This document shows, piece after piece, positions 32,581 to 50,314 of a DNA stretch of 64,000 nt. The first letter of the stretch is position 1. Each line of letters starts with the position of its first letter. Location of the stretch: positions 3,904,001 through 3,968,000 of the forward strand of contig OZ220696.1 in the NCBI GenBank assembly GCA_965116495.1, written 5' to 3'. This DNA is from Gammaproteobacteria bacterium. GTDB taxonomy: Bacteria; Pseudomonadota; Gammaproteobacteria; Eutrophobiales; Eutrophobiaceae. The notes below the pieces were generated by a model, which did no database searches, was not told the origin of the DNA, and was given only the letters and a program-made list of their open reading frames with translations. The position numbers were made by a program, and so were the translations under genes.

Positions 32581-32769
32581 ACTATGCTTCCTGATTAAAT
32601 AACAAGAGATTAGGCCATTCTTGTCCGGCAACCCGGCAACAATGGTTTATAACTTTATGATATATTGGGTTTTGGCCGCATCAAGGTTTTTATTTTAGGC
32701 CGACGCACTATTATTCGCAAGCATTTTTCGAGTATCATGCAACATCATGGGCGGATAAATACCGATATA

Positions 32770-33405
32770 ATGAACGCAGAACAACCGGAAAAACCGGACA
32801 AGCCACAATCGAACAATAAAGTCACCGGGACCAAGGGGCAGAAGCGCCGCCAGCAGATCATTGACGCGGCGAAGCAGGCCCTGATAGAGGGTGGCGCGAA
32901 CAGCCTGGTCCTGCGCGATGTCGCGGACCAGATTGGTATCACCCACGGCAATCTTCAATATTACTTCCCCACGAAAAACGATCTGCTGATAGCGATATTC
33001 GACCAGGCGGTAGAGAAATACACGGAGAGCATGAAGGTGGCAGTCTCCGAAACGTCCACCAGCAAGGGCAGGCTGGATGCCATCATCGATGCCGGTATCG
33101 CCGAGTTGAAAGCGCCCGAAACCGCGTTATGGCGCATGATGATGTCCCTAGCGGACCACAACACGGACATGGCCTCGATTTTGAAGAAGGAAAACGACCT
33201 GTATGAACAGGTCGTGGCGGAGGAATTGGAGTTAATTTCTCCAGGGCTGTCTATTCAACGCAGGCGCCATATCGCCCGGATCATCCACGCCATACTCGAC
33301 GGACTCGGCATCCAGTTCTCCTATGAAGATGCGGAAGGCCCGGAGATGCGGGCGCTGGCCAGCGAGATTAAGATAGCGTTATTCGCCATGCTGCAGGCGA
33401 GTTAG
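32770..33405 (+). CDS. TetR-family regulator
   Basis: RRQQIIDAA...LRDVADQIGITHGNLQYYFPTK HTH. Confidence 0.9.
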   Translation: MNAEQPEKPDKPQSNNKVTGTKGQKRRQQIIDAAKQALIEGGANSLVLRDVADQIGITHGNLQYYFPTKNDLLIAIFDQAVEKYTESMKVAVSETSTSKGRLDAIIDAGIAELKAPETALWRMMMSLADHNTDMASILKKENDLYEQVVAEELELISPGLSIQRRRHIARIIHAILDGLGIQFSYEDAEGPEMRALASEIKIALFAMLQAS

Positions 33406-34193
33406 CGTTTGCTAATCATAAACGAACGTAATTCTTCGGTAGTGTATGTCTTCTCTACTTTGCCGTAATTCAGCTCAGCATTGGCGCGGCCGTATTCGAA
33501 AGAAATCAACTCTTTGACGGGTAACATGGAATCGGAATGCGCGCCGAACTGCAGGTTCCCCGAACCGGTATAGACTTCTGCCTTCCCGTCCGAACCAATG
33601 ATCGGGTTGACCTGGTAGTTCAGTGTAACCATCTGTGCCAGAATTGGTAATTGCCCTCCTTCTGCGTCCGGTATAACGCGCAGACAGATAAGGGGTACCG
33701 CATCTCCGTCACTTGCCAGTTCATTCCTTGCCGGTTTCATCATGGCCCGGATGGCCCGGTCGTCAGGTTTGACATCCATCACTGCCTCTACATGACCGTC
33801 GCTGTGCTTGATAACGTCGATCCGGTGGGCGCGTTTTTTGCCAAATCCGTACAGTTCACGATCCACAATCTGTGAGGTTTCACTGGTACAGTACACCCCC
33901 GCCAGGTAGCCGTGGACTTTGCCTTGCCATTCACACAGGATACCGGTAAACACCTCGTTGTAGGCCCCTACAGTGCTCCAATGATTTCTCTCGATCACCA
34001 TGAATGCAGTGGCAGGTTCATGGAGTGAGAGAACGGGAGGCAGGATGTCAAGTATGGCGTCATCCTCAGTCTTCCAGGTGACGGTAACGGCTTCAAAATC
34101 GCGGAAATAGTAGGGACCTCTATGCACAGAAGGGCTGTGTAGAGGTGCGAATGCGCCCCATTTGTCAAAAGTGAGTCGTCCGGGTTTTGGCAT
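33402..34193 (-). CDS. Acetoacetate decarboxylase-like protein, paralog 1
   Basis: GPYYFRD, GAYNE, RELYGFGKK (Schiff-base Lys), LRVIPD. Confidence 0.8.
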   Translation of the reverse strand: MPKPGRLTFDKWGAFAPLHSPSVHRGPYYFRDFEAVTVTWKTEDDAILDILPPVLSLHEPATAFMVIERNHWSTVGAYNEVFTGILCEWQGKVHGYLAGVYCTSETSQIVDRELYGFGKKRAHRIDVIKHSDGHVEAVMDVKPDDRAIRAMMKPARNELASDGDAVPLICLRVIPDAEGGQLPILAQMVTLNYQVNPIIGSDGKAEVYTGSGNLQFGAHSDSMLPVKELISFEYGRANAELNYGKVEKTYTTEELRSFMISKR

Positions 34194-34218
34194 TGTATTA
34201 TTCTCGCAGGGTTGTCAG

Positions 34219-36465
34219 CTAAATTTGTGTTATCCGAACCGGAATAGCGTTCAGTACTGCTGTCCCGGATAAAGTATCCAGGTTCATGTCGTCTACCAGT
34301 ACATTCATGTTTGACCCCGGTTTCTGCCGGGCGATGTTCAAGCGCATACCTTCCCTGTTGTGTCCCCATCCATGAGGCATACTCACGACTCCCGGCATGA
34401 TATCTTCGGTAATCTCAACAGGTATTTCGATCTCCCCGGTATTTGTGCTCAATCTGGCCGGCCTGCCGTCATCCAGGGACAGCCGCTGCGCATCTTCCGG
34501 ATGAACCTGCAGGGTGCAACGGGATTGACCTTTCGCCAGAATATCAACGTTGTGACCCCATGAGTTGATACTGCGCAAATGCCGGCGTCCGATTAGTAAT
34601 AGTTCTTCCCCGGAAGGGTGTTGCAGCGGCGCCTGAAGCAATGTGCGGGCTTCTTCCATGAAGGCTGCGGGAGCCATCTCAATTTTTCCGTTGGGTGTGC
34701 GCAATACTTCGGGTAAGCGCGGTTGTAAAGCGCCAAAATCAACCCCGTCAGGTTTGGAAATTATTTTTTCCAGTGTTATACCGTCCGGGTTCGCGCCAAA
34801 TCCATCGCCATAGGGGCCGACTCTGAACCCGGCGTCCAATACCCGTTCCACACCGCGCTTGCCTGAGAGCCGGCTCATTGCAGAGGGAATATCAATACCG
34901 TGAGCTATGGAATACTCATCAGCCGCCGCTTCGGCGATAATTTCACTGATCATCCGGTCCTCCATTTCCTGTAAACCTTGTTCGTCCTGAACCCCAAGCC
35001 CGGCTGCTATAGCGCTGATTTGCAGTAATACATCCCAATCCGATACCCACTCCGCGGGTGACGTGAACAGGGCAGGGGAGAACCGGACAACATTCCGCAC
35101 TGCATACATGGCCGAAAAACTCCCGTAGTAGCATGTTTCGAAAGTAGGGGTTCCCGGCAGGATTACATCGGCATGGCGCGAGGTTTCGTTGATATAAATA
35201 TCCAGCGACAGGAAAAAATCCAGTCGGGACAGCGCCTTGTCCAGGCGTTCCGGGTTCGGGGCACTGGATACCGGATTTCCGCACATGGTAACCAGGGCGC
35301 GGATTTGTCCATCTCCAGGTGTTTCAATTTCTTCAGCCAGACAGGCAACCGGCAATTCACCACAGGTCGGCGGCATGTTGCGAACACGGCTACGGAACGT
35401 GGATTTGGGTAGCGGTTCACCTGTACCCGGTTTACCCTTTGTGTTGGCAGCAAACGATGGCGCCTTGGCAAACATCATACCGCCGGGTTTATCAAGATTG
35501 CCGGTCACGATGTTAATGACTTCAATTAACCAACTGGTAACCGTACCGTACTTCTGCGTGGTGGAGCCGACCCGGCCGTAAACGCCTGCTCTTTCCCTTG
35601 TCGCCAGTTCATGGGCGATTGTTTCAATGGATAAGGCATCTATCCCGCAGTTGGCCGACATTTGTTCCAGGGAAACCAGTTTTGCCAACGCTTCTATCGT
35701 ATCCAGGCCTGATATGAACGGGGCGATAGCGGCTGTTTTCGACAACCGGTCACGAAATATGACATGCAGCACGGCCAACAGGAAATACTGGTCCTGTCCC
35801 GGGCGAATGAACAAATGCCGGTCGGCAATTTTTGCCGTCTCAGTACGGCGAGGGTCCACAACAACCAACTTGCCGTTGCGCTTTTTCAAATCCCGCGCAC
35901 GTTTCCTGAAATTGGTTGCCAGCCATAAACTCCCGTTGGAAATTTCCGGGTTTGCACCGATGATGAGCAGGTAGTCAGTGCGGTCTATATCGGGTACGGG
36001 GTTGGTGGACTCATCACCATACATTTCGGTGCAAGTGAGTATCTTCGGGAGTGCATCGACAGAGTTGGCCGTATACAGATGAGGCGTAGCAAGGGCTTCG
36101 TACAGAAACAGAAAGCCGGTATTAAAAGCTGCGCTGCGTAAAGTGGCATTACCCACGTACAGGGCAACAGACTCCTTACCATATCGTTGTGTTACGTCTG
36201 ACAGTTTTTCATCGATAACCGCAAAGGCTTCATCCCAGCCGGCAGGCACAAGCTTGCCGTTTTTTCGCACCATTGGTGTCCTTAGCCGGTCCGGGTCATC
36301 TCCCAGTTCCATTAGTGCCACACCTTTAGGACAGACATGTCCCAGGGTCATCAGATCATTGTTATTGCCACGAATGCTGACTACCTTATTTTCTTCGAGC
36401 GTAAGTTCCAGCCCACAGATGGCTTCACAATTCGGACAGATGTAGTAGCTCTCCCGGCGGGACAT
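34219..36465 (-). CDS. Stand-alone molybdopterin oxidoreductase with N-terminal 4Fe-4S
   Basis: CPNCEAICG...CPKG, DPDRLRTP, GANPEISNGS, VDPRRTETA, LIGRRH, PHGWG. Confidence 0.88.
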   Translation of the reverse strand: MSRRESYYICPNCEAICGLELTLEENKVVSIRGNNNDLMTLGHVCPKGVALMELGDDPDRLRTPMVRKNGKLVPAGWDEAFAVIDEKLSDVTQRYGKESVALYVGNATLRSAAFNTGFLFLYEALATPHLYTANSVDALPKILTCTEMYGDESTNPVPDIDRTDYLLIIGANPEISNGSLWLATNFRKRARDLKKRNGKLVVVDPRRTETAKIADRHLFIRPGQDQYFLLAVLHVIFRDRLSKTAAIAPFISGLDTIEALAKLVSLEQMSANCGIDALSIETIAHELATRERAGVYGRVGSTTQKYGTVTSWLIEVINIVTGNLDKPGGMMFAKAPSFAANTKGKPGTGEPLPKSTFRSRVRNMPPTCGELPVACLAEEIETPGDGQIRALVTMCGNPVSSAPNPERLDKALSRLDFFLSLDIYINETSRHADVILPGTPTFETCYYGSFSAMYAVRNVVRFSPALFTSPAEWVSDWDVLLQISAIAAGLGVQDEQGLQEMEDRMISEIIAEAAADEYSIAHGIDIPSAMSRLSGKRGVERVLDAGFRVGPYGDGFGANPDGITLEKIISKPDGVDFGALQPRLPEVLRTPNGKIEMAPAAFMEEARTLLQAPLQHPSGEELLLIGRRHLRSINSWGHNVDILAKGQSRCTLQVHPEDAQRLSLDDGRPARLSTNTGEIEIPVEITEDIMPGVVSMPHGWGHNREGMRLNIARQKPGSNMNVLVDDMNLDTLSGTAVLNAIPVRITQI

Positions 36466-36481
36466 GGACAGAAATCATCAG

Positions 36482-37363
36482 TTAAATTGATGAAACGAAA
36501 TCCAGGTATTGTTCGGCTAACCTGTTTAACAGACTTTCGACCTCGGCTGCAGATGTTGCAAAGTGCAAAAGGACGAGTTCGTCGACACCCAGTTCCCTGT
36601 ATTCCTCAATCATTTCGTGGTCATAGTCATGTCCATAGGGACAGGCATAAACCTTAATCTCTTCTCTTGGCCGGTTCGCCTCAACAAGCGCGGCTTCCAG
36701 GTCCGCGATTTGCGGAGCCAGTTGTTCGGGATTGGCGCCGATGGCAAACCAGCCCTGGCACTGGTCTGCAACGCGCCTGAAACTGGGTTTACTGTTACCG
36801 GCAAAAATAATGGGCGGGTGGGGCGTTTGAACGGGCTTCGGATAGAAGCTGCAGGGGCGTAAGTCATAAAATTCATCATGGTATTCAGAGACAGGGTCGC
36901 ACCACAGGCGTTTTATCACCTCGATATACGAACGGGATCGCGCCCCGCGCTGTTCATAGGTGGCGCCGACAGCTTCAAACTCCTCTCTCTGCCACCCCAG
37001 CCCGACGCCGAGTTCCAGGCGCCCGTTTGAAAGCCAATCCACGTTTGCCGCTTCTTTTGCCGTGTAAACCGGATTGCGTTGCGGCAGCACGATGACAGCG
37101 GTGCCCAGCCGTATTCTGTCAGTGATCGAGGCAAGGTAAGCCAGGGAAGTGAATGCATCGAGTTCAGCATTATCGGCAGCTTCTTCGTACTCCATCCTGC
37201 CATCTTCGTATACGGGAAAGTTCGGATCGTAATCATCCACCATCACAACATGCTCACCGACCCACAGCGAGTTAAAACCCAGTTTCTCCGCAGTCGTTCC
37301 AAGCGCGCGCAGAAACTCCGGGGTTGCGGTAAGGTTAAGCGGGACCAGTACGCCTAATTTCAT
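36482..37363 (-). CDS. LLM-class (F420/FMN) oxidoreductase, paralog 2
   Basis: Same length (293 aa) and closely similar to 31699-32580. Confidence 0.88.
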   Translation of the reverse strand: MKLGVLVPLNLTATPEFLRALGTTAEKLGFNSLWVGEHVVMVDDYDPNFPVYEDGRMEYEEAADNAELDAFTSLAYLASITDRIRLGTAVIVLPQRNPVYTAKEAANVDWLSNGRLELGVGLGWQREEFEAVGATYEQRGARSRSYIEVIKRLWCDPVSEYHDEFYDLRPCSFYPKPVQTPHPPIIFAGNSKPSFRRVADQCQGWFAIGANPEQLAPQIADLEAALVEANRPREEIKVYACPYGHDYDHEMIEEYRELGVDELVLLHFATSAAEVESLLNRLAEQYLDFVSSI

Positions 37364-37493
37364 GGTTTATTCCCCCGATTTCCGCCAGGTGGCGTTCGAA
37401 GCCTGAAACAGCGGAAAAATACCCGGTACATGTTAACTCGAACCACCGTGTGGTCCGGGCCCATGTTCGTGTTACCGGCGGTTGCGCTCTTTC

Positions 37494-38249
37494 TCAGTAG
37501 GTCTTGAGAATTTTCCCGTAGGGCAGGTCGGCCGTCATCCTGACATATTTGGCGTCGACAATCTGCACTACCGGCAGATTCACATCGGATATTCTGTCAA
37601 CTTCCAGTGATGCCGAACCGTTGTATAACTCGTCCTTGCCATCAGGGCCCTTGTGGGGGACGCCGGTAAACAACACCGAGTTCAACTGCGCCACGGCGGG
37701 CGTATCGCTGCCCTCGACATCGGGTATGACTTTAAGGACCGCGAGCGGCAGTGCCGCCAGTTCCGAAGCGGGCAGGTTTCTATCCGGGAAGAAAAAGGTT
37801 TTGGCGACTATGTGGCCCGGTTTGACCTCTACAACACCCTCGATCTCACCGGTCCCGTGCTTGATCAACTCGATACGGTGGGCGAGTTTTTTTCCGAAAC
37901 CCCAGACTTCCCGGCCTATGATGAGGGCATTTTCCGTCGTCACGTATACGGCGTTGGTGTAACCGTATACCTGGCCTTCATGCATACACAGGATCCCGGT
38001 GTACACCTCGCCGTAAGGGCCGCCACTGGTACTGATATTATTGACTTCCAGCACCATGAACGCGGTTGCAGGTTCAATCAGTTCAAGCTCCGGCGGCATG
38101 ATATCAAGTGCCGCATCTTCATCGGTCAGGTAGGTAATCACCAGCGCTTCGGTATCGCGGTAATACCAGGGGCCTTTCTTATAAGAAGCATTGTGTGCGG
38201 GCATTGTTGAGCCCCATTGATCGGGTGTCAGTCTTCCCATTTTTGCCAT
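37494..38249 (-). CDS. Acetoacetate decarboxylase-like protein, paralog 2
   Basis: GPWYYRD, GPYGE, GREVWGFGKK, LKVIPD. Confidence 0.85.
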   Translation of the reverse strand: MAKMGRLTPDQWGSTMPAHNASYKKGPWYYRDTEALVITYLTDEDAALDIMPPELELIEPATAFMVLEVNNISTSGGPYGEVYTGILCMHEGQVYGYTNAVYVTTENALIIGREVWGFGKKLAHRIELIKHGTGEIEGVVEVKPGHIVAKTFFFPDRNLPASELAALPLAVLKVIPDVEGSDTPAVAQLNSVLFTGVPHKGPDGKDELYNGSASLEVDRISDVNLPVVQIVDAKYVRMTADLPYGKILKTY

Positions 38250-38539
38250 GATGATAATCTCCGCTGTTTCTTTGTCCTTTATGGGGAAAGAATGTGAGTC
38301 TTCAAAATAAATTATATTTGATAAAGCGTTGGTGAGTATAGGCCAAATTATTTATTTTTGCAAATCGTCCAGCAAATGAGTTAACCTACTGAATAGTATA
38401 TTAAATCATCGATTTTATAGTGTTAATTATGTAAATTATCATAAGATACCTATATTTAAATTAGGCCAATGGCATAATAATATTCATTATCCACAGGACG
38501 CTGGTCAATCAGCCGGTGCATGTATAGTTAAAAACGATA

Positions 38540-39697
38540 ATGCAGCATTCCAGTAAAAATTCTGATATTGCCTTAATAATTGCGGTCGCGGCCGGGACAT
38601 ATATCAGTATCACCTCGTCTAATTTCTCCCCGCTTTTAATCGGCATATTAGCGGATTCAGACATAGTAGCTGAAATTACCGGAGCCTATATTTTAGCACT
38701 TGAAATTTGTGCCATCCCTGTTGCGACGCTCGTAGTATTGCCTTTCATACAGCATGTTAATCGGCAAAGGTTAGCAATTGCAGGTGTTGTGTTCGCTACG
38801 ATTGCTCAATTGATCAGTCCGTTTTTCCTGGAGAATTATGAGCTCTTTATAACACGTTTTTGTGTTGGGCTTGGGCTGGGTTGTGTTTATGCCGCGGTCA
38901 ATTCAGTAGGCGCAACTTCCGAATATCCAGATAAGGTATTTGGCTATTCAACAGCTATTACATTTCTCCTGTACGCAATTACGCAACCACTGATGTCCAT
39001 GGTCATCGGGAGTTTTGGGTTTGGCGGTGCATGTATCTTTCTTACGGTAGCAGGATTGATTTCTCTGCTGTTTATTCGCAACTTTCCCAGTGAACCCAGC
39101 ATAGTCAAACAGCAAAAAATAGAGGTGCATTGGCGCTATTACATTGCCTTACTGATTACAATTATATTAATTAATCTTGCCGCCGGTACAACCTGGGCAT
39201 TTGTGGAAAGAGTAGGAGTTAGCAGGTTTGGATTGGATATTGAAATAATTGGTTTGATTCTCGGGATAGGAACAGCAGCCGGGGTAGTGGGGGCTTATTC
39301 AGCTTCATGGGCTTATACCCACCTGGGTCGCATAAATTCAATATTGTTTGGCTTGGTCTTGTTTGGAGCGACAAGTTACGGGATCACAAATTCAACTACA
39401 ATACCAGTCTATACCGGCAGTATAATTCTTTACTGGTTTATCTATCTGTTTCTTTATCCACTACTGTTCAGCGCTGCTGCTGAGCTGGATCGTTCCGGAC
39501 GTCTGGCTACCATTACCGGCGGTTTATTATGGCTTGCTGTTGGCATCGGACCTGCGGTTGGCGGACTGATTGCTTCTCGATATAGCTACGGCATGCTTGG
39601 ATGGTTCAGTTTTTTCTGTTGCGTTCTAGCAGTGCCTTTTTTCTATAGGGTAGGCCGGTACTTGGAGACCCGTTATGAAAGCTCTTCAAAAGCTTGA
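38540..39697 (+). CDS. MFS transporter
   Basis: About 12 hydrophobic helices; RFCVGLG and AELDRSGR motifs; AT-rich coding sequence. Confidence 0.8.
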   Translation: MQHSSKNSDIALIIAVAAGTYISITSSNFSPLLIGILADSDIVAEITGAYILALEICAIPVATLVVLPFIQHVNRQRLAIAGVVFATIAQLISPFFLENYELFITRFCVGLGLGCVYAAVNSVGATSEYPDKVFGYSTAITFLLYAITQPLMSMVIGSFGFGGACIFLTVAGLISLLFIRNFPSEPSIVKQQKIEVHWRYYIALLITIILINLAAGTTWAFVERVGVSRFGLDIEIIGLILGIGTAAGVVGAYSASWAYTHLGRINSILFGLVLFGATSYGITNSTTIPVYTGSIILYWFIYLFLYPLLFSAAAELDRSGRLATITGGLLWLAVGIGPAVGGLIASRYSYGMLGWFSFFCCVLAVPFFYRVGRYLETRYESSSKA

Positions 39698-39755
39698 GTT
39701 TTTTACCTTTGGTCAAGCGGACTACGAAAGGATAAAACAGGTGGTATTCAGTCCG

Positions 39756-40589
39756 TCAGCGAATCGCCCTTATTGCCTGTATGTTCCCCGCTGAGGCCTC
39801 TACCTCTGCAGCTTCGAACTCTTCCGCCGTGTAGGTCTTCAGGATCTTCGGGTACTCCAGCACGGAGTCATAGCGCGAAAATTTGAACGATGCAACACCG
39901 CGAATGGGCAACTGAAGGTCGGACGGCCACCCGAAGGCGAGATGTCCGGGGCCGCTATAGACCATGGCACGGCCCTGCGCATCAACGTGAGGATGGACCG
40001 GATACGGCTGAGAGACGAGTTGCGCCAAGGCAGGACGGTCTCCACCCTCAGAATCAGGGAATGTCTTGAGAAATATCATCGGAATAGACTGGTGCGCGCC
40101 CAGTGCTTCGGCCGACTCGTGCGTAGCCGGCCGCATTACGGCACATGCTGCCCGGTCACCGTTCTTGATCTCCATGATCGCCTGGATGTCTCCATCCTCG
40201 TGCTGAGTAACCTCGATGCGCTCAGCGGTCTTCTTGCCACATCCAACGATTTCCCGGGCAACCACCCGGGAAGCGACGCCGCTCGTGTACACGGCAGGGA
40301 TGTAACAGCAGTCTTCTCCCTGCCACTTGCACATGATGCCCATGTAGGCCTCGCTATAGGGCCCCAGCGTCGTCCAATGGTTGTCCGCAATTGAGACGAA
40401 TGCCGTCGCCGGCTCGACAAGCTCGAGATCGGGAGGCATGAGGCTGCGCGCCGCATCCTCGTCTGTTTCAAATTCAATGATGATCCCTTCGGTGTTGATA
40501 TAATACCAGGGACCCTTGGATGCACAGGAGTCATGAACCGGCGAGAATGGACCCCACTTGTCCAGCGTAAGCGTACCCGTTTTACCCAT
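39756..40589 (-). CDS. Acetoacetate decarboxylase-like protein, paralog 3
   Basis: GPWYY, GPYSE, REIVGCGKK, LKTFPD; start at MGKTG after GGGGAG. Confidence 0.8.
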   Translation of the reverse strand: MGKTGTLTLDKWGPFSPVHDSCASKGPWYYINTEGIIIEFETDEDAARSLMPPDLELVEPATAFVSIADNHWTTLGPYSEAYMGIMCKWQGEDCCYIPAVYTSGVASRVVAREIVGCGKKTAERIEVTQHEDGDIQAIMEIKNGDRAACAVMRPATHESAEALGAHQSIPMIFLKTFPDSEGGDRPALAQLVSQPYPVHPHVDAQGRAMVYSGPGHLAFGWPSDLQLPIRGVASFKFSRYDSVLEYPKILKTYTAEEFEAAEVEASAGNIQAIRAIR

Positions 40590-41545: not shown

Positions 41546-41560
41546 TTACAACGTATAGTT

Positions 41561-41673: not shown

Positions 41674-41714
41674 ACATAAACAGTGCGACGCTATTTATGT
41701 CGTTATGTATAGAA

Positions 41715-42860
41715 TCAAACAGCGTCCTTCAGACGCCTGGCCAGGTAACGCTGAAAATAAAAGAGGCAGGCTTCCTTGACGCTGAGGGGACCTGCTTCAG
41801 CGTAGCGTGAGCCGATGGTTCTTTGCAGCCGCCAGGTGGCCTGGTAATCCTCCGGGTTGAGCACCTCGAAAAATTCCCTGTTGTAGCGGCTTAACTCGTC
41901 ATTCAGTTCTTCTTCAGGTACCAGGGCGCCCATCATTACGCGGGTACGGTCGATGCTGAGGGGCAGGATCCGTTTCCAGAAGACAATCCCCGGGGATGCA
42001 TCGACGGTGCTTGACGGATAAATTACATAGGTCAGCGTCTCTTCCCTGTCCCGTGGTTCGATGTCTGCGCTCCAGCGCTCCATCAGGTCGGCGTAGATCG
42101 GCGCTTCGGCGCGTACCAGGTCCAGCATCAGTGGGGTACGCAACAGGCTCCAGTCCTGCTCATCCTCGCCGCAGTGCGAGTCGTCGCCAGGCATCCACGG
42201 CTGCAGGGTCTCCGGGTGCAGGGTACGGTGATGGTGCGCCTCGGCGTTGTTTTCCATGGTCAGCTTCCAGTTCCCCTCCCATATTTCGTCGTACATCGAG
42301 GAAATCCGCATCCTGTCGATGTGGTAAGGAGCCAGCCGCTCACCCAGTTCCTGCAACCGCGGCGCCAGGGGTTCTGCGTCGGGGTCGAGATTGACAAAAA
42401 TGAAACCGAGCCAGGTTTCCAGCTTGAATTCCGGCAGTCGGCAGTTGTCCTTATCCAGGATACGGCTTTCACTCATGTTGGTTGCGCCCATCAACCTGCC
42501 GTCAAGCTGGTAGGTCCAGCCGTGGTAGGGGCAGGACAACCGCCCTGCGCTCCCTTGCCCCATGACAACCTGCATATAGCGGTGGCGGCAGACGTTGGAG
42601 AGCACCCGCAGCCTGTTATCGGTCCCGCGTACCACGACCAGCGGTTCGCCGGCCAGTTCGATGGTGAAGTAATCCCCCGGGTTCTCAGCTTCTTCTTCGC
42701 GTCCGACGCAGATCCAGTCGCGGCGGAACAGGTGTTCGAGTTCGAGTTCGTAGAACTCTTCGGACAGGTATGCCTGCGGCGGCAGGCCCCGGGCTTCCTC
42801 AAGGGGAGTGGAGAGCGACTTTATCAGCGTGTCGATTAACACTCGGGTTGCAGCTTGCAT
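41715..42860 (-). CDS. Rieske non-heme iron oxygenase alpha subunit (choline monooxygenase/GbcA/CntA-like group)
   Basis: CRH...CPYHGW Rieske motif, NWKL..EN..EAHH..LH, ED iron ligands. Confidence 0.88.
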   Translation of the reverse strand: MQAATRVLIDTLIKSLSTPLEEARGLPPQAYLSEEFYELELEHLFRRDWICVGREEEAENPGDYFTIELAGEPLVVVRGTDNRLRVLSNVCRHRYMQVVMGQGSAGRLSCPYHGWTYQLDGRLMGATNMSESRILDKDNCRLPEFKLETWLGFIFVNLDPDAEPLAPRLQELGERLAPYHIDRMRISSMYDEIWEGNWKLTMENNAEAHHHRTLHPETLQPWMPGDDSHCGEDEQDWSLLRTPLMLDLVRAEAPIYADLMERWSADIEPRDREETLTYVIYPSSTVDASPGIVFWKRILPLSIDRTRVMMGALVPEEELNDELSRYNREFFEVLNPEDYQATWRLQRTIGSRYAEAGPLSVKEACLFYFQRYLARRLKDAV

Positions 42861-42904
42861 TTCAACCAGTATCCCGGTTCAGGACTACACAGTTCCGGAG
42901 CGCC

Positions 42905-43249
42905 TTAACGCCATTCCACCGGTTTATCCGATACCAGCATGGTGATGTCTTCAAAGTCATCGCTCATTTCGAAATCGATAGTAGTCCCTTCTTCAACATA
43001 CAGGATGTCGCCTACGCCTATCGAAAAGTTCTCACCTCCATGGACATTGACTTTGGCGGAACCCTTGAGTACGAAGGCAAATTCGTCAAAGGGGTAGGTA
43101 AAGGTGTGTTTTCCGGCTTCCTTGAAAGCAACGACTGCCCGTGTCTTGTCGGCTGACCGGTAGAAAACATGTTCCCCGCCGCCGAATTCCGGTGTCAGTT
43201 CCCAATCAACGTCTTTCATGTTAAAGCGTAAGGCTTTTGGTGTGTTCAT
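42905..43249 (-). CDS. Cupin (EutQ/DUF861-like)
   Basis: YPFDEFAFVLKG...GDILYVEEG. Confidence 0.75.
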   Translation of the reverse strand: MNTPKALRFNMKDVDWELTPEFGGGEHVFYRSADKTRAVVAFKEAGKHTFTYPFDEFAFVLKGSAKVNVHGGENFSIGVGDILYVEEGTTIDFEMSDDFEDITMLVSDKPVEWR

Positions 43250-43260
43250 GCTTCACTCCC

Positions 43261-43387
43261 ATTTTAACTTGTCTTTTTTTCATCATGCTTCGTTGGGTTT
43301 CCTCATTCGGTCGGTCATGTACATAAGTACACTCCCTCCCTCTCTCGTCGCCCGCCTCGCCTGATGAAAAAAATCCTGCGTTAAAAT
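43261..43387. mobile_element. MITE-like palindromic dispersed repeat
   Basis: Imperfect terminal IR ATTTTAAC..TTTTTTTCATCA / TGATGAAAAAAA..GTTAAAAT; internal TGTAC..GTACA stem; deleted copy at 3142-3209. Confidence 0.65.
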
Positions 43388-43410
43388 TCTCAAAATAAAT
43401 CGGTAACAAT

Positions 43411-45369
43411 CTATGTATTTATTATTTCCATAACCTGTAGCGCCGCGCGCTCCCCATGTTCAACTGCGCCAAACCACTCCTGGATGCCCTTGTGTTCCGA
43501 GTGACCAAAGGCAATACGCCCGAATGGCCTGGTAATAACCTGCTGCAGGGCCGGCTTGCCATCGTTACCATGGAATAATCCCGGGACTGCAGCGACATAG
43601 GAGTGGCCCCAGCGGTTCACGATAATGCCGGCGATATCTTTTTCATCATCGAAACCCAGCGGGCCAAACATGGTGGTCAACTGTCGGCGCACCGACGCTT
43701 CGATATCGGCATAGCTTTTTGACATCAGTTCCCATCTTATTGCCGCCGCTTGTTCCTTTGCAGGTAATCCCGGTTTGGTAAACCCGGCATAAAAGGTCAG
43801 GACAACCGGTTTTTCGGGGTTGAGCGGGGGCTGGTTGTCACCAAAAACCAACGGCCGCCTGATATTGCAGAATCCGCCAAGGCCATTGTCCGTGAAGAAA
43901 TGACAGGCACTCACCCCTAATTTTGCCATTGGCTTCCAGTTCCTGAGCGCTACATTGATGATCATGTTGGAACCATAAACCATTTGACCGAAAGCATCTT
44001 CATATGCGCCGGGCAGGTCCTGGATAATATGCTTGTTTACCCAGCCGCCAATAGCAGACACGGCGCCTTTGGCCCTGACACGATAGACTTTGCCATCCTG
44101 TTGATAATAGACCGTAACACTCTCTGCCCTGGCCGGGTCACCATCATGCTCGACACGAACAGCTGTAGCGTTTAAACGGATTCTCACCGGGTTGCCCGGG
44201 TTATCAAAATTATCAAACCGATATGCCGAATCATGAATCTCTGCAAAGCGCGTCCCCCCTGAAATCGCGTTCGGCAACACCTTCTTCAGCATGAGACGAT
44301 AGATCGCATCGTTGCCTCCGGGGAACGAGAAAATGCCGGCAACCTCCTTGTCATCAGAAGGCACCCGGTACAGTGATTTGTCACCGAAGCCTTTATCAAA
44401 CCCCGGTAATGCAGACATCATTGCGTAGCGAGCGGAAATTGCATCGCAACCCATCCCCGAGGTGGTAGAGAGGGTTATGGACAGCAGTTTGATTACACGG
44501 GGTTGAATCTGGAGGACGTCTTCCAGATATTCCCGGTAGGTGATACTGTCCAGCCACTGCGACCAGTCGTCTCCGGCTTTATTGACGCCGGTTCCCTCAC
44601 GCAGGCGCTTCAGGTCCGCTTTCTCAGCCGCTGAAAAAGCCGTGTTTGCATAAGCATTCTGACTTGAATCCCTGTCCCAGTAGGATTCCTCCAGACCGAA
44701 GGTCTCGTCGTCAAAGAAGTAACCCGCGCTAGCCGCCTGTTCGGCAATGCCCAGCATAGGCAGGTAATTTGTCGGAGATAATCTCAGATCACCCTTGTAG
44801 CCTTCCAGGGTCTGGAATTCCGGGTGGCGCGGGATTTCCAAATCATTAAACAACTCGTCATACCAGTCACCCTTGACAGCGGGAACCACGGTAAGGTTCG
44901 ACCCTTGCGGACCGGTGATTTTATAGCCGTCGACGATAAATTCGTTACGCTTTGCTTCGCCGCCCGGAAGGGCGTGGTTTTCCAGGATAAGGCACGTTTG
45001 TCCCGGCCTGGATTCCTTCAGGAATGTGCGGGCGGCCGACAAGCCGGCGAAACCACCGCCGATGATGACAAGATCGTATGCTTCTCCGGTGTCGACCGCA
45101 CCACGCAGTATCCCGTCAATTTGTTTGTCACGTATCAGGTGGGCGGCGCTGGTGGTATTGTCAGTGTTGCCGTTTGCGCGGGCGTAATCGCCGACACCGG
45201 CATAGCCGTCCCAGGGGTGAACCGTTTCCGCGTGATGTTGTGCTGCTGTATCGCCCGGCCTGGCTGTGGCCGTATTGGGCGCCGGCATGCTCAACAGCAT
45301 GGCGCCGGAACCGATCAGCGTTCCTTTGACGAAGTCACGGCGGGTAATATCGCTGTCATATTTCCTCAT
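43411..45369 (-). CDS. Tat-exported FAD-dependent amine dehydrogenase (spermidine dehydrogenase SpdH-like)
   Basis: TRRDFVKG Tat motif, IIGGGFAGL, GGEAKRNEF, FPGGN, DIAGIIVNRWGHSY. Confidence 0.8.
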   Translation of the reverse strand: MRKYDSDITRRDFVKGTLIGSGAMLLSMPAPNTATARPGDTAAQHHAETVHPWDGYAGVGDYARANGNTDNTTSAAHLIRDKQIDGILRGAVDTGEAYDLVIIGGGFAGLSAARTFLKESRPGQTCLILENHALPGGEAKRNEFIVDGYKITGPQGSNLTVVPAVKGDWYDELFNDLEIPRHPEFQTLEGYKGDLRLSPTNYLPMLGIAEQAASAGYFFDDETFGLEESYWDRDSSQNAYANTAFSAAEKADLKRLREGTGVNKAGDDWSQWLDSITYREYLEDVLQIQPRVIKLLSITLSTTSGMGCDAISARYAMMSALPGFDKGFGDKSLYRVPSDDKEVAGIFSFPGGNDAIYRLMLKKVLPNAISGGTRFAEIHDSAYRFDNFDNPGNPVRIRLNATAVRVEHDGDPARAESVTVYYQQDGKVYRVRAKGAVSAIGGWVNKHIIQDLPGAYEDAFGQMVYGSNMIINVALRNWKPMAKLGVSACHFFTDNGLGGFCNIRRPLVFGDNQPPLNPEKPVVLTFYAGFTKPGLPAKEQAAAIRWELMSKSYADIEASVRRQLTTMFGPLGFDDEKDIAGIIVNRWGHSYVAAVPGLFHGNDGKPALQQVITRPFGRIAFGHSEHKGIQEWFGAVEHGERAALQVMEIINT

Positions 45370-45548
45370 CTGCAACCACCTGTATGAACTACTGCATGAT
45401 AATCATTAACTGAAGTAAGCGGCAATAAAAAAAGCCATGACACACTCCTTGTGCCATGGCTTTTTTGCTGTGTAACTTCCGGGGGCAGAATTAATCCTGT
45501 CCCCGGCAACGTGCAATATACCAATTCCCGTCTGTCACTGATATGTCA

Positions 45549-47708
45549 TCAGAAGCTATATCCGATGCTTCCACCAACCCAACGTTTAGGGGCAAAAACG
45601 TCCTCTCCGGAACCAAAGAACAGGCTTGCGTCAACCCCGAAGGTTCGATACTCTTCATCGGTCAGGTTATTAACAAAAATGGCCGCGCTCCAGGCCTCAT
45701 CACCGCTCGTGAAATCCAGTCTGGCGTTTACTATGCCATAAGAACTTTCAGTGACAATTTCGGATTCAGATAAATTAAATTTTTGGTCATCAGTCCAACG
45801 AAAATCCCCTTGCAGCGCCAGTTGCCCACCAAAAGCAGACCACGAATAACGCACCAGGCCATTAAAAGTAACGTCAGGCGCTAATGGCGCTTTTTCTTTT
45901 CCGGTTGGGTAAGTTTGGGCAGGAGCGAAAGTGACAGGGTCCAAGGAATTAAAATCGGTAGGCAGGCCGGTTATCTCGGTGTCACTGAAAGATGCCCCCA
46001 GCAGAATATCCAGTCCCTCAACAGGATTCGCGACCAACTCAATCTCACCACCGTAGAATTCTGCTTCTGCATTGAACAGTAGTGCATTAAAGAAAGGATC
46101 GATGTTATAGGCTTGATAATCATCATAGTCATAATAATAAACCGATACATTCAGACGCGTGGTATCGCTTAAACTTGCTTTAAATCCTGCTTCGTACGAG
46201 GTGAGTACTTCACCACTGTAAGGTAAAACATCGCCGCTGACCGGCGTCAGTGGAAAATTAAAACCGCCGGACTTGATGCCCCGGTTCCAACCTGCATACA
46301 ACAACCAGTCATCATTCAGGTTATAGTCAAGCTGTACCTTTGCGTTAAAGTCGTCTTCATTAAGTGAGCCTGTGTAAGTCGGGAACCCGAAGTCAGGCGC
46401 AGTTAACGTATAGTCCTTATCGTCATCGTTGTAGCGCACACCGAGTATCAGGGCAAGTTGATCAGTAAGATCAAATTCTGTTTGCCCGAAAATCGCATAG
46501 GTTGTCGTGCTCTGAACGGCGAACTCATCGAAAATATCAGGACCAAAATAAAACAGCCCGGATTGCTCGGTGGAAAAATCGCCATCAATGTCTAAATAGT
46601 ACACACCAATGACAGAACGATGTCGTTCACCTTCCCAACTCAAACGAAGTTCCTGGGAAATTTGTTCAATATCAGCAGTCTGGGTGTAGTGGTAAACGCT
46701 GTCGGGTGTTGAGTCTGAATCTTCAGCGTAATCATGTTCAATATCCTGGTAATCAGTGATAGAGGTCACTGTAAAGCCACCAAGGTCCCAGCTGATTTTG
46801 CCATACAAATTGATGACTTCAGTCTTTTGATAAAAGTCGAAATCATTGGAAATGGTGTAAGGATTACCGTCTATTTCATCTACATAACCAAAAAAATCAG
46901 TTGCGTTATATGACGGCACATTTAACGTCCACCCATTTGGCGCAGCGTCTTCGTCCGCATATTGCGCTTTCAACAAGATGCTTAGCTCTTCAGAGGGTTC
47001 AATCAACAATTGTCCCCGCACCGCCCAATCATCAGCTTGCTGCGCATCGGTGCCAATGTCATTATCGAGGAGACCATCATCCTCGTTATAGACCATCGAC
47101 AGGCGACCCGAAACCTGGTCGGTCAGACCGCCACCTGCAGCAGCTTCAACCCGTCTACGTCCTTCTTCACCCAGGGTCACATCAACAAACCCCCCAAATT
47201 CCTGTGATGGTTTGGTGGTGATGTAATGTACCAACCCCCCCGTGGAGTTGCGCCCGAACAAGGTGCCCTGGGGGCCGCGTAAAACCTCTGCACGCTCGAC
47301 ATCGAACATGCTGAAGCGCGTAGTGACGTTAGAACTCTGGTAGGCCTCATCTATATATAAGGCAACCGGCGCTTCCTGATTCGCCGTGTAATCGTTTTGA
47401 CCAACACCACGAACGTTAAATGAGGCGATCGCACCGCCGCCATAACCGGATACTTCAAGGCCGGGAGTTTGCGCAATCAAATCATTGGATTCAACGAAAC
47501 CCAGCTTTCTCATTTGCGCACCACTGAAAGCCGTTACCGAAACACCGATGTCCTGCAGGTTCTGTTCACGTTTTTGTGCCGTGACTACGACTTCTTCCAG
47601 TACCGCGGCAAATAAAGTGCCTGATGCAAAAACAAGTACAAAAGCCGCTGAAATACAGGTGAACAAGCTTGACCGTAGAGGGACCAGTAATTCACGAGGA
47701 TTATTCAT
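45549..47708 (-). CDS. TonB-dependent receptor
   Basis: EEVVVTAQKREQNLQD, ERAEVLRGPQGTLFG, C-terminal YSF. Confidence 0.92.
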   Translation of the reverse strand: MNNPRELLVPLRSSLFTCISAAFVLVFASGTLFAAVLEEVVVTAQKREQNLQDIGVSVTAFSGAQMRKLGFVESNDLIAQTPGLEVSGYGGGAIASFNVRGVGQNDYTANQEAPVALYIDEAYQSSNVTTRFSMFDVERAEVLRGPQGTLFGRNSTGGLVHYITTKPSQEFGGFVDVTLGEEGRRRVEAAAGGGLTDQVSGRLSMVYNEDDGLLDNDIGTDAQQADDWAVRGQLLIEPSEELSILLKAQYADEDAAPNGWTLNVPSYNATDFFGYVDEIDGNPYTISNDFDFYQKTEVINLYGKISWDLGGFTVTSITDYQDIEHDYAEDSDSTPDSVYHYTQTADIEQISQELRLSWEGERHRSVIGVYYLDIDGDFSTEQSGLFYFGPDIFDEFAVQSTTTYAIFGQTEFDLTDQLALILGVRYNDDDKDYTLTAPDFGFPTYTGSLNEDDFNAKVQLDYNLNDDWLLYAGWNRGIKSGGFNFPLTPVSGDVLPYSGEVLTSYEAGFKASLSDTTRLNVSVYYYDYDDYQAYNIDPFFNALLFNAEAEFYGGEIELVANPVEGLDILLGASFSDTEITGLPTDFNSLDPVTFAPAQTYPTGKEKAPLAPDVTFNGLVRYSWSAFGGQLALQGDFRWTDDQKFNLSESEIVTESSYGIVNARLDFTSGDEAWSAAIFVNNLTDEEYRTFGVDASLFFGSGEDVFAPKRWVGGSIGYSF

Positions 47709-48020
47709 TAAATTCTCTCCGGGTGATATGTAAGTTAAAGCCAAAATATTGATATTGCAGTCACTCAACAAAATATTCAGCGAGTATAGGCCAGAGTATA
47801 GTTTATTTCAACAATTGTTTAAAATTGATAAGTCATTAATATACAATGTATTAAACAATTTTAAATTAGAATTATCAAAAAACAGGATTTAACGATGGGA
47901 TTAATAATAGGCCAGCGGCTTATAGTTTTTACGCGTGAATGTTAAAAGGGAACGCGTAACGCCACATTTGTCGGTAATTTACTTGTCCTGAAGCCATAAA
48001 AAACCACCCGGGATAGCAGG

Positions 48021-50114
48021 ATGAAAACCATTCTCGTAACAATCATCGCATTCATGGTTACATTTCAAAAACCGGCTTTTGCTCTCGATACTGATCTGCC
48101 CGGTTATACCTATGAGCAGGCGCAACTGGGCAGGGCAGTCTATAAACAATCCTGTGAGTTGTGTCACGGGGCAAATTTAAATGATGGTTCGTCACCACCG
48201 ATTACCGGTGACCTTTTCTATAGTATATGGGGTGGACGTTCTGCAGGAGAGTTACTGCAGTATATTGAAACAGAGATGCCGACCGGTTCACCGGGAACAC
48301 TTGACAGTAAACAATACCGGCAAGTTCTGGCTTATATGTTCCAGGTGAGCGGTTTTCCTGCGAGGGATGGTGAACTGTCACAAAATCCGGATGAGTATGA
48401 TACTGCGCGTTTACCGATACCGTCCGGAGGCCGGATTTCTGCAGATATTGTCGCCATACCACCGCCACCCGATCCACGGGCGAACCCGCTTGATAAAATC
48501 ACAAGGGTAAGCAGTCAAACATTGGCGCAAGCGCCCGCCGGGGACTGGTTAATGTGGCGTCGAACATACGACGCAAAGGGCTTCAGTCCATTAAAAAATA
48601 TCAGCGCGAAAAATGTGACGGACCTGAAGGTGGCATGGGCATGGACAATGCCCGATGGCAGGAACATTTCAACACCATTAGTCCATGATGGGGTTATGTT
48701 CATGTATGGTGCGGGCAGCCTCGTGTATGCGTTTGATGCTGTTACGGGGGATATTCTTTGGCGTTATGAGAGGGAGAAGAAGTGGCACTCTCCACGTTCT
48801 TTTGGTCCGCGCGCCATATCAATTTATAACGACAAAATCATTCTGACCACCGATGACGGAAATATCGTCGCACTCAACGTAAAGACCGGCAAAGTCGAAT
48901 GGGATAAATCCGTATTAAGTGCTACCACCCTTTGGTTTTCCGCGGGTACCCTGGTTGCCGATGAAAAAATTCTCATCGGCACGGCTACTGCCAGCGCACC
49001 CGGCATGAACTTTATCGCAGCGTTTGATGTACATACCGGTGATGAATTATGGCGCTTCCATACCATCCCACAGGATGGACAGCAGGGTAGTGATAGCTGG
49101 AATGGGGTTGCAACAGGGCAACGCCAGGGTGCGGGCGTCTGGGTACCAGGTAGCTATGATCCGGAATCAAATCTGGTTTTCTTTGGTACCGGTAATACTT
49201 ACAGGCCACAACTTTTGAGAATATTGGCCGAAGGCGCCGCAAGCAATGATGGGCTTTACACCAATTCCACACTCGCGCTTGATATAGATAGCGGAAAACT
49301 GAAATGGCATTTCCAACATCTACCGAATGATCAATGGAATTATGATTGGGCCTTTGAACGAACAGTTGTGGTCTTACCTGTCAACGGAGTTCACAAAAAA
49401 GTGGTCATTACAGGCGGTAAGCAAGCCATTTTTGAAGCCTTGCAGGTTAGTAATGGTGAGTATCATTTCTCGATAGATACAGGTTTGCAAACTGTGATCA
49501 AGGCAATAGAGCCACTGACGGGCACTAAAAGAATAGCTGCGAATGTATTACCTGAAAAAAATCAAACGCGTTTTGTCTGCCCCGATTCCCTGGGGGCCAG
49601 GAACTGGCAGCCAACATCATTCAACAGTGAAACAAATACACTCTTCACGCCATATAGAGAGTCGTGCATGAAAATACGATCGCCATTATTACCCGGTGAT
49701 ACTCCGCACGGACTTTTTGGCCAGAAACCTTATCCGGCACCGGGTAGCGACGGTAACTTTGCCGGCCTGCGGGCTATAAACCTGGAAAGCCAGGAAATAT
49801 TGTGGTCAACCCGTAAACGGGCAGAGCTGAGTACCGGCGTATTGGCGACCGCGGGAGGGTTGATATTCTCGGGTTCGCGGGACCGGGTATTTTCTGCCTA
49901 TGATCAATCTGGTGGTACAGAATTATGGCAAGTTCGTCTCAATGGAGTTCCCAGCGGTGGCCCCATCAGTTTTATGGTAGAAGGTAAACAGTACATCGCG
50001 GTTACTACCGGTGACTCTGAAGGTTTCGGTGAATACAATTTGGGTGAAGGAGATCAAAATCCAAAAAAGAGCAGTGCAACTATTTGGGTATTTGAGTTAC
50101 GTGATTCCAGTTAG
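48021..50114 (+). CDS. PQQ-type beta-propeller dehydrogenase with N-terminal cytochrome c
   Basis: Signal peptide, CELCH heme motif, W-motif propeller repeats, GARNWQP, KQYIAV. Confidence 0.85.
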   Translation: MKTILVTIIAFMVTFQKPAFALDTDLPGYTYEQAQLGRAVYKQSCELCHGANLNDGSSPPITGDLFYSIWGGRSAGELLQYIETEMPTGSPGTLDSKQYRQVLAYMFQVSGFPARDGELSQNPDEYDTARLPIPSGGRISADIVAIPPPPDPRANPLDKITRVSSQTLAQAPAGDWLMWRRTYDAKGFSPLKNISAKNVTDLKVAWAWTMPDGRNISTPLVHDGVMFMYGAGSLVYAFDAVTGDILWRYEREKKWHSPRSFGPRAISIYNDKIILTTDDGNIVALNVKTGKVEWDKSVLSATTLWFSAGTLVADEKILIGTATASAPGMNFIAAFDVHTGDELWRFHTIPQDGQQGSDSWNGVATGQRQGAGVWVPGSYDPESNLVFFGTGNTYRPQLLRILAEGAASNDGLYTNSTLALDIDSGKLKWHFQHLPNDQWNYDWAFERTVVVLPVNGVHKKVVITGGKQAIFEALQVSNGEYHFSIDTGLQTVIKAIEPLTGTKRIAANVLPEKNQTRFVCPDSLGARNWQPTSFNSETNTLFTPYRESCMKIRSPLLPGDTPHGLFGQKPYPAPGSDGNFAGLRAINLESQEILWSTRKRAELSTGVLATAGGLIFSGSRDRVFSAYDQSGGTELWQVRLNGVPSGGPISFMVEGKQYIAVTTGDSEGFGEYNLGEGDQNPKKSSATIWVFELRDSS

Positions 50115-50314
50115 GAAATGATCTGTACAACTGTGTTAGTAAATATTAGGCCAACACATAGTATTTTACGAAAAAATTTACTAATTATATAACTATATGA
50201 TAAACATATAATAAATAAAAATATTAATAAGATTATATAACTCATAATATTAATATTTTGACTAATAATAGGCCATTATATTATAATAAGAACTTGTTGA
50301 ACAGGAGAAAGCCA

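What the first reader, a model, noticed from the sequence alone, without database searches (positions are those of the whole stretch)
32607..50283. Island-wide motif A-N-W-W-TAGGCCA, three times as direct pairs 121-123 bp apart
TAGGCC(A/G) starts at 32611, 32696, 38339, 38462, 40630, 47787, 47908, 50147 and 50269. All nine are intergenic in island promoter regions and on the same strand. The pairs 38339/38462, 47787/47908 and 50147/50269 are spaced 123, 121 and 122 bp. They enclose very AT-rich DNA with IHF-like words (TAAGTCATTAATA at 47829, TAACTATATGATA at 50190). Some sites extend toward a TAGGCCA-N-TGGCCTA palindrome (38462, 40630, 47908); others overlap a minus-strand -10 (TATACT). This suggests one regulator acting through a fixed-length DNA loop. 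It could be the local TetR or a direct-repeat binder of MocR/GntR type.
Basis: seen in the sequence. Interest (0 to 1): 0.75.

Follow-up and report, generated by a model that had tools for sequence, protein, structure and literature searches.

The report
TetR operators inside back-to-back promoters
The repeated word is one half of a 15-base palindrome that sits inside predicted promoters of a 25-kb cluster of breakdown-type genes and is most likely the docking site of the TetR-type repressor encoded there; this is an ordinary kind of switch, apparently not yet described for this regulator, and the 121-123-base spacing is probably not a fixed DNA loop.

Summary
In detail: all nine sites and the 123/121/122-bp pairs are present, intergenic, unique in the 4.34-Mb genome, and conserved in congeners while the DNA between them has diverged. 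The interpretation needs revision. The unit is a 15-bp dyad, TAGGCCR-N-YGGCCTA. It occurs perfectly 39 times in 31 of 72 metagenome loci of homologues of the local TetR (recognition helix THGNLQYY), often in the tetR promoter itself, and never with another spacer. A matrix trained on those distant loci ranks 38462 and 47908 first and second genome-wide. Each site fills the 17-bp spacer of a predicted sigma70 promoter. Right sites are near-full dyads; left sites are half-sites whose 'A-N-W-W-TA' prefix is the opposite strand's -10 box. An IHF-consensus box sits at a fixed +40 or +43/44 in this clade only. Family-wide spacings run from 47 to 174 bp, with no helical phasing between 103 and 122, so a fixed loop is not supported, and MocR/GntR and sigma54 readings fail. 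Verdict: a real, apparently undescribed TetR regulon of about 19 catabolic genes, a new member of a known kind. An IHF-assisted loop, best at the 85-bp tetR pair, is not excluded.

The parts
32770..33405 (+). TetR-family regulator, 211 aa, recognition helix ITHGNLQYYF; likely binder of all sites
   Evidence: Pfam TetR_N and TetR_C_6 over cut-off; model pLDDT 87 matching TetR folds; helix HGNLQYY invariant in 36 homologues
32611..32625 (+). A1: half-site operator, probably in the 5' leader of the leftward LLM gene (not in promoter register)
   Evidence: conserved in 10 of 10 loci, 85 bp from A2; -35/-10 match only 1.2/3.3 of 6
32650..32662 (-). IHF-consensus box at +40 from A1, near the midpoint of the 85-bp pair
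   Evidence: 1 mismatch; 13 of 15 columns invariant in 10 genomes; also at +40 in L088 and L124
32696..32710 (+). A2: near-dyad operator overlapping predicted promoters in both directions (LLM leftward, tetR rightward); likely autoregulatory site
   Evidence: matrix rank 5 in genome; -10 match 5.3 of 6 on both strands; minus-strand promoter 32720-32692
38339..38353 (+). B1: half-site in the spacer of the predicted leftward promoter (TTGCAA-17-TATACT) of ADC-LLM-Moco-ADC
38382..38394 (-). IHF-consensus box at +44 from B1 (2 mismatches here, 1-2 in orthologues)
38462..38476 (+). B2: near-perfect dyad upstream of the MFS transporter gene
   Evidence: matrix rank 1 in genome; its -35/-10 fit in the usual register is poor (2.5/2.8 of 6)
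40630..40644 (+). C: near-dyad in the spacer of the predicted leftward promoter (TTGATA-17-TATATT) of the third ADC gene
   Evidence: rank 15
40674..40688 (+). degenerate tenth site in the same register in the predicted rightward SDR promoter, 44 bp from C
   Evidence: best secondary matrix hit at +44 in 6 of 6 loci, low score 0.6-4.7 bits
47787..47801 (+). D1: half-site in the spacer of the predicted leftward promoter (TTGAAA-17-TATACT) of TBDT-SpdH-like-cupin-Rieske
47829..47841 (-). IHF-consensus box at +43 from D1
   Evidence: 0-1 mismatch in 7 of 7 loci
47908..47922 (+). D2: near-perfect dyad ending in the -10 (TATAGT) of the predicted PQQ-dehydrogenase promoter
   Evidence: matrix rank 2 in genome
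50147..50161 (+). E1: half-site kept although no leftward gene start is adjacent (33 bp after the PQQ-dehydrogenase stop)
   Evidence: 7 of 7 motif columns invariant in 7 genomes against 12 of 68 other columns
50190..50202 (-). IHF-consensus box at +44 from E1
   Evidence: 0-2 mismatches, four of seven perfect
50269..50283 (+). E2: site in the spacer of the best sigma70-like promoter of the region (TTGACT-18-TATAAT, 50258-50287) for VOC-aminotransferase-ALDH-SDR
   Evidence: rank 98
30001..55083 (.). predicted regulon of about 19 genes: CoA ligase, 2 LLM oxidoreductases, TetR, 3 ADC-family, Moco oxidoreductase, MFS, 2 SDR, Rieske oxygenase, cupin, SpdH-like flavoprotein, TBDT, PQQ dehydrogenase, VOC, class III aminotransferase, ALDH
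   Evidence: operon grouping inferred from gene order

Best explanation
TAGGCCA is one half of a 15-bp palindrome, TAGGCCR-N-YGGCCTA, that is likely the operator of the TetR-family protein at 32770-33405, which would repress a roughly 19-gene catabolic cluster by sitting in the spacer of each predicted sigma70 promoter. Shown in sequence: the dyad, its link to this TetR subfamily, and its register (-35 box, 4 bp, 15-bp site whose last TA is the first two bases of the -10). Inferred: a TetR dimer there blocks RNA polymerase until a pathway substrate or intermediate binds and releases it; A2 gives autoregulation. The pairs arise because two promoters sit back to back, each with its own operator. 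The right one is a strong near-dyad and the left one a weak half-site (often TAGGCCA-N4-AWWG-TTTT), so the perfect halves point the same way and look like a direct repeat. Weak sites on the transporter and entry-enzyme promoters would allow basal expression (inferred). In this clade IHF probably binds about 55-65 bp upstream of the leftward start and bends the DNA as an architectural co-factor; the 121-123 spacing is likely inherited from one duplicated promoter module. The substrate is unknown; SpdH-like oxidase, aminotransferase, ALDH and CoA ligase point to an amine-containing organic compound (inferred).
For: Perfect dyad 39 times in 31 of 72 loci of TetR homologues (720 kb; 34 distinct contexts), 0 with spacers 0 or 2-7. 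A half-site lies within 400 nt upstream of tetR in 23 of 26 loci where tetR has its own promoter, against 130 of 3539 ORFs genome-wide and 0 of 9 other TetR-like genes of this genome. A matrix trained on 184 sites from the metagenome loci (the one own-genus locus left out) ranks 38462, 47908, 32696 and 40630 at 1, 2, 5 and 15 in 4.34 Mb. In those 184 sites TTG falls at the -35 position in 21% (right) and 17% (left) against 0-9% at shifted registers. Right-site second halves read Y.92 G.76 G.69 C.69 T.67 T1.0 A1.0. tetR, ADC, TBDT and the motif co-occur across the genus: tetR in 12 of 23 genomes; pattern in 10 of 11 other tetR-positive and 1 of 11 tetR-negative genomes. The genome encodes IhfA and IhfB over cut-off.
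Against: No binding was measured. The distant loci were fetched by the TetR, so its presence there is by construction, and related loci are not independent. No perfect dyad exists in this genome, and the left sites score poorly (ranks about 5,000-67,000), so whether a dimer binds them alone is open. B2 does not fit the promoter register well. E1 is conserved without an adjacent leftward gene start, and direct orientation predominates among distant pairs (28 direct, 6 inverted, 11 with a perfect dyad); neither is fully explained by independent operators. Promoters are consensus predictions only (28 found against 22.4 +/- 5.1 in shuffles).
Confidence: 0.85

Rival explanations
1. Same TetR, but the weak and strong sites cooperate: IHF bends the DNA between them and two dimers close a repression loop, most plausibly at the 85-bp tetR pair and at E1/E2. 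This adds to the best explanation rather than replacing it.
For: IHF-consensus box at a fixed offset in 37 of 38 congeneric intervals (2 or fewer mismatches), across four promoter classes; the interiors of B, D and E are no more alike than shuffled. In the 85-bp pair it lies near the midpoint and A1 is outside promoter register. 11 of 45 distant pairs fall at 84-87 bp, about 8 turns. E1 is invariant in tandem gene context.
Against: No phasing among 19 spacings of 103-122 bp; 85 and 122 differ by 3.5 turns. The IHF box tracks the left site, not the midpoint, and is found at that offset in only 6 of 31 distant pairs. 7 of 17 AWWG-type half-sites have no strong partner within 200 bp. E1's own -35/-10 decays only modestly (3.7/4.3 against 4.0-4.2/5.0-5.2), so it may still be an antisense promoter. 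The 84-87 class is largely one homologous promoter.
Confidence: 0.2
2. The TetR is dual-acting like Vibrio LuxR: it represses at symmetric sites and, with IHF, activates at the asymmetric left sites.
For: LuxR binds symmetric sites at repressed genes and asymmetric sites at activated genes through an N-terminal arm (PMC8034623, abstract and passages) and works with IHF (PMC7145609, passages). Here K22, G23 and R27 of the N-terminal arm are invariant, and left sites form a recurring asymmetric class (17 of 48 weak sites).
Against: The left sites overlap the first two bases of the -10 box and the spacer of promoters with good -35/-10 matches, a position that normally blocks polymerase (general knowledge). 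LuxR is only 18% identical. The regulon is local.
Confidence: 0.08
3. A direct-repeat binder (MocR/GntR type) or a global factor encoded elsewhere binds TAGGCCA as a monomeric unit.
For: Only half-sites are perfect in this genome and all point one way. In three loci of 29-30% identical homologues TAGGCCG occurs as direct repeats 22 bp apart.
Against: Perfect 1-bp-spaced dyads beside tetR homologues in many lineages. No other regulator family recurs in the loci. No comparable AT-rich pairs elsewhere in the genome.
Confidence: 0.04
4. The word is a promoter element: a sigma54 -24 box (with IHF) or an extended -10.
For: TGGC resembles the sigma54 -24 box and IHF boxes are typical there (PMC6524683, passages). 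The TA end is shared with the -10 hexamer.
Against: GC at the required -12 position in only 6 of 85 sites. The motif is not general upstream of genes (3.7% of ORFs). The dyad symmetry is unexplained by a promoter element.
Confidence: 0.02

Closest known systems
RutR of E. coli (TetR family; consensus TTGACCAnnTGGTCAA, PMC2475637, passages read)
   Same: TetR family, divergent from a catabolic operon, dyad of 7-bp halves ending CCA...TGG; the same table lists TAGACCGACTGGTCTA at ydhM, one base from this half-site
   Different: 2-bp centre (16 bp) against 1-bp centre (15 bp) here; only a weak sequence match to the protein (E 3e-4); pyrimidine ligand
Tn10 TetR/tetO and local TetR-family catabolic repressors such as KstR, FadR/YsiA, BetI (operator features recalled)
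   Same: fold and HTH; palindromic operator with a central base pair overlapping divergent promoters including its own
   Different: 17-23% identity to the listed structures; below every NCBIfam equivalog cut-off, e.g. BetI 62.6 against 201.3 bits; different operator; operator locked into the 17-bp spacer register
Vibrio LuxR/SmcR/HapR with IHF (PMC8034623, PMC7145609; abstracts and passages)
   Same: TetR family, symmetric and asymmetric sites, basic N-terminal arm, IHF nearby
   Different: global activator/repressor with a degenerate motif; here a local regulon with sites inside promoters
GalR two-operator repression loop, IHF-facilitated looping (PMC6524683, passages)
   Same: two sites 85-123 bp apart with a bending-protein box between them
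   Different: LacI family, not TetR; phasing not found for 103-122 bp; bridging by this TetR untested

Membership tests
TetR-family regulator and operator | N-terminal TetR HTH and helical C-terminal domain | tested here: met
   PF00440 38.8 bits (cut-off 24), PF13977 27.5 (27); nine-helix model, top fold hits all TetR family
TetR-family regulator and operator | palindromic operator in or near its own promoter | tested here: met
   dyad 39 times in 31 of 72 homologue loci; half-site upstream of tetR in 23 of 26 own-promoter loci; A2 in the window
TetR-family regulator and operator | protein binds the operator and is released by a ligand | not testable with these tools
   needs EMSA, footprint or reporter assay
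BetI, KstR, FadR, RutR or other named TetR equivalog | score over the curated cut-off | tested here: not met
   all NCBIfam hits of the window protein far below cut-off; same families, weak E-values, for 36 homologues
MocR/GntR direct-repeat regulator | GntR-type gene conserved with the regulon; direct repeat as binding unit | tested here: not met
   a GntR-like ORF (read by eye) in one congener only; unit is a dyad
sigma54 promoter with IHF | GG at -24 and GC at -12 with fixed spacing | tested here: not met
   6 of 85 sites
two-operator repression loop (GalR/LacI type) | helical phasing of inter-operator distance | tested here: inconclusive
   not met for 103-122 bp (p about 0.7); 11 of 45 distant pairs at 84-87 bp, but not independent
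two-operator repression loop (GalR/LacI type) | repressor bridges two sites (tetramer or dimer-dimer contact) | not tested
   no complex prediction sent: its score would not separate a dimer from a tetramer
IHF binding site | WATCAAnnnnTTR consensus (PMC1874591, passages) and IHF genes in the genome | tested here: met
   2 or fewer mismatches at a fixed offset in 37 of 38 intervals; ihfA and ihfB; binding itself untested

The most novel reading that the evidence does not exclude
This TetR subfamily pairs a full dyad with a conserved asymmetric half-site (TAGGCCA-N4-AWWG) and, in this clade, uses IHF at a fixed offset to fold the two into one repression complex. That would be an IHF-assisted TetR loop built as a portable module, copied four times in one cluster, with two binding modes for one repressor.
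Probability: 0.2. Interest if true: 0.55.

Novelty: new member of a known kind. Interest (0 to 1): 0.3.

Why it matters
It assigns a likely operator to a widespread TetR subfamily that matches no named family here (318 proteins at E <= 1e-20). It also outlines a conserved catabolic cluster (TBDT, SpdH-like oxidase, aminotransferase, ALDH, ADC-family, VOC, cupin) of unknown substrate. The repressor-operator pair gives a ready reporter for finding that substrate. The kind of switch is ordinary; only a demonstrated IHF-dependent loop or second binding mode would interest specialists.

Tried and rejected
A PuuR/XRE-cupin reading (recalled motif; search listing only) was dropped: no such gene is conserved in the loci and a tail-to-tail arrangement with spacer 4 occurs once. 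GGCC-methylation switch: GGCC is only mildly depleted (O/E 0.82) and the dyad explains the word; methyltransferases were not searched. sigma54: rejected. Recent duplication of the three intervals: interiors 55-62% alike, equal to the shuffled baseline of 57-60%. Genome-wide regulon: no convincing outside sites; other top matrix hits are mostly coding. Metatranscriptome contigs of four runs from one study (small word share, mostly 95-99% alike) cover pieces of cluster genes but cannot show starts, strand or level, so they are not used as evidence. Literature: six exact 15-mers gave 0 papers; TAGGCCA plus TetR gave only irrelevant listings; TetR looping searches gave no direct case in the listings; a search with an unverified habitat guess gave one irrelevant paper. 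The library lacks most subscription journals, and supplements and motif databases such as RegPrecise were not searched, so 'undescribed' is limited to these searches. Earlier scan findings held nothing for this genome or protein. The operon classification was unreliable and was redone, where 39 of 65 loci fell in the co-directional-or-too-short class (10 with a site) and were left out of the 23-of-26 count. No complex prediction was sent.
Full report
Observation. The nine sites are at the stated coordinates, all on the + strand, with spacings 123, 121 and 122. The 7-mer alone is near chance in the window (20 against 14.3 +/- 3.8), but the pairs are not. Of 228 TAGGCCA in the 4.34-Mb genome only 8 direct pairs lie within 400 bp, and the three here are the only AT-rich ones among those within 200 bp (P about 4e-4). 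The surrounding genes are a catabolic cluster at 30001-55083 with one regulator, a TetR. It is not clearly an island: GC is 52.2% against 54.7%, there is no tRNA, and it lies beside metZ in 8 congeners.

Conservation in the genus. tetR is found in 12 of 23 genomes of the genus, and close ADC and TBDT orthologues only in tetR-positive ones. The pairs recur at 85 bp in 10 of 10 loci for 32611/32696; 122-123 in 9 of 10 and 114 in 1 for 38339/38462; 121-122 in 7 of 7 for 47787/47908; and 120-123 in 7 of 7 for 50147/50269. Interior identity to the window falls to about 60%. In two congeners the TBDT-side left site pairs directly with the VOC-side right site (121 and 123 bp), and others pair the ADC site with an SDR gene. 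The pair thus behaves as a promoter module that is re-used with different flanking genes.

The unit is a dyad. Right-hand sites continue as N-YGGCTTA. A scan with an alignment of TetR homologues gave 73 metagenome loci; one from the own genus was left out. In the other 72 (720 kb) the perfect dyad TAGGCCR-N-YGGCCTA occurs 39 times in 31 loci, and never with spacers 0 or 2-7; by my arithmetic about 0.01 would be expected. It often lies directly upstream of tetR. A half-site is within 400 nt in 23 of 26 loci where tetR has its own promoter, against 3.7% of ORFs and 0 of 9 other TetR-like genes in this genome. The recognition helix HGNLQYY is invariant. A symmetric matrix trained on 184 sites from those loci ranks 38462, 47908, 32696, 40630 and 50269 at 1, 2, 5, 15 and 98 genome-wide. 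The left sites 32611, 38339, 47787 and 50147 rank in the thousands or worse, so they are half-sites. These loci were fetched by the TetR and are related, so the counts overstate independence.

Register. The 15-mer fills a sigma70 spacer: -35 box, 4 bp, 15-mer, with its last TA forming the first two bases of the -10. Left sites do this for the leftward gene (TTGCAA-17-TATACT at 38339, TTGAAA-17-TATACT at 47787, TTGATA-17-TATATT at 40630). Right sites do it for the rightward gene (TTGACT-18-TATAAT at 50269), and 32696 does it in both directions. In the independent set TTG peaks at the expected -35 position (21% and 17% against 0-9% at shifted registers). Exceptions are 32611, outside register and probably in the LLM leader, and 38462, which fits poorly. 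A degenerate tenth site at 40674 keeps the register. sigma54 geometry fails (6 of 85).

IHF. A WATCAAnnnnTTR match (consensus from PMC1874591, passages) lies in one orientation at +40 in the 85-bp class and +43/44 in the others. It has 2 or fewer mismatches in 37 of 38 congeneric intervals, although the B, D and E interiors are no more alike than shuffled sequence. The genome has ihfA and ihfB. The box is also in L088 and L124 (TetR 71-75% identical) but at that offset in only 6 of 31 distant pairs. It follows the left site, not the midpoint, except in the 85-bp pair.

Loop or not. Among 45 distant pairs the spacing runs from 47 to 174 bp; 28 are direct, 6 inverted and 11 include a perfect dyad. 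Nineteen spacings of 103-122 bp show no phasing at 10, 10.5 or 11 bp per turn (p about 0.7). A fixed 121-123 loop is therefore not a property of the family. Three results keep a loop open. Eleven of the 45 pairs lie at 84-87 bp, though most are one homologous promoter. Site 50147 stays invariant in 7 genomes although no leftward gene start is adjacent, though its own -35/-10 decays only modestly. And a recurring asymmetric class, TAGGCCA-N4-AWWG-TTTT, makes up 17 of 48 weak sites, 7 of them without a strong partner. The bias to direct orientation is not explained beyond common descent.

Mechanism. Most likely (0.85) the TetR dimer represses each promoter by occupying its spacer, autoregulates through 32696, and is released by a substrate or intermediate. 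Strong sites would guard the rightward units, and weak ones would allow basal expression of the transporter and entry enzymes. The dyad, register and co-occurrence are shown in sequence; binding, repression, ligand and IHF occupancy are inferred. The cluster holds a protein similar to spermidine dehydrogenase (E 2e-54), a class III aminotransferase, ALDH, CoA ligase and ADC-family proteins. Distant loci add an NADP-dependent oxidoreductase, acyl-CoA dehydrogenase and an APH-family kinase. This suggests breakdown of an amine-containing compound through an aldehyde, acid and acyl-CoA; the substrate is not determined.

Comparison. The protein is a TetR by profile and fold but below every named family's cut-off, and 17-23% identical to the listed structures. 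The operator resembles the RutR consensus TTGACCAnnTGGTCAA (PMC2475637, passages) with a 1-bp centre. Vibrio LuxR shows that a TetR can use symmetric and asymmetric sites and act with IHF (PMC8034623, abstract and passages; PMC7145609, passages), but it is a global activator. Six exact 15-mers found no paper in the held library; supplements and motif databases were not searched. Earlier scan reports on other genomes describe similar local TetR regulons with other motifs; they are unchecked and show only that this kind of finding is common.

Verdict. A real, conserved and apparently undescribed TetR operator and regulon: new member of a known kind, interest 0.3. The IHF-assisted loop or two-mode binding has probability about 0.2 and would deserve about 0.55.

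Noticed in passing
L159:4883-4911, L161:1212-1240, L162:9334-9362: Distant TetR homologues (29-30% identical, same THGNLQYY helix) have TAGGCCG as direct repeats exactly 22 bp apart upstream, hinting at a different binding geometry.
   Followed up: no
L141:570-602, L142:669-701, L144:9872-9904, L153:1847-1879: Two 15-bp sites side by side, 18 bp apart, with outer halves perfect and one inner half doubling as a -35 box; L141 and L153 add sites 42-43 bp further on. Suggests adjacent dimers at the tetR promoter.
   Followed up: partly
L128:6392-6541, L134:4522-4668: Two perfect dyads 135 and 132 bp apart upstream of tetR.
   Followed up: no
window 48021-50114; L042:19793-19920, L045:367-496: The cytochrome c-PQQ dehydrogenase gene and one promoter module are absent between TBDT and VOC in two congeners, so the gene was gained with a module duplication or lost by recombination between modules.
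   Followed up: partly
window 55688-56038: 116-aa ORF with only sigma-70 region 2 of an ECF-type sigma factor; looks truncated or frameshifted.
   Followed up: no
window 26838-27293, 56374-57513, 57769-58968: PIN/VapC-like, Fic-domain and AAA_14-DUF4143 genes flank the cluster; similar Fic or AAA genes lie at cluster edges in several congeners.
   Followed up: no
L057:685-777: In one congener two left-type sites, both with leftward -35/-10 matches, lie 86 bp apart upstream of a TBDT-like gene without the IHF box.
   Followed up: no
L043:5586-12154, L050:9212-14132, L055:3956-8782: Acyl-CoA dehydrogenase-like genes, a phosphotransferase-like gene (read by eye; APH confirmed only for an L092 protein) and an SDR follow the cluster in several congeners but not in this window; possibly the lower pathway.
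   Followed up: no
window 31699-32580, 36482-37363; 33402-34193, 37494-38249, 39756-40589: Two LLM-class and three ADC-family paralogues; their number varies among congeners.
   Followed up: no
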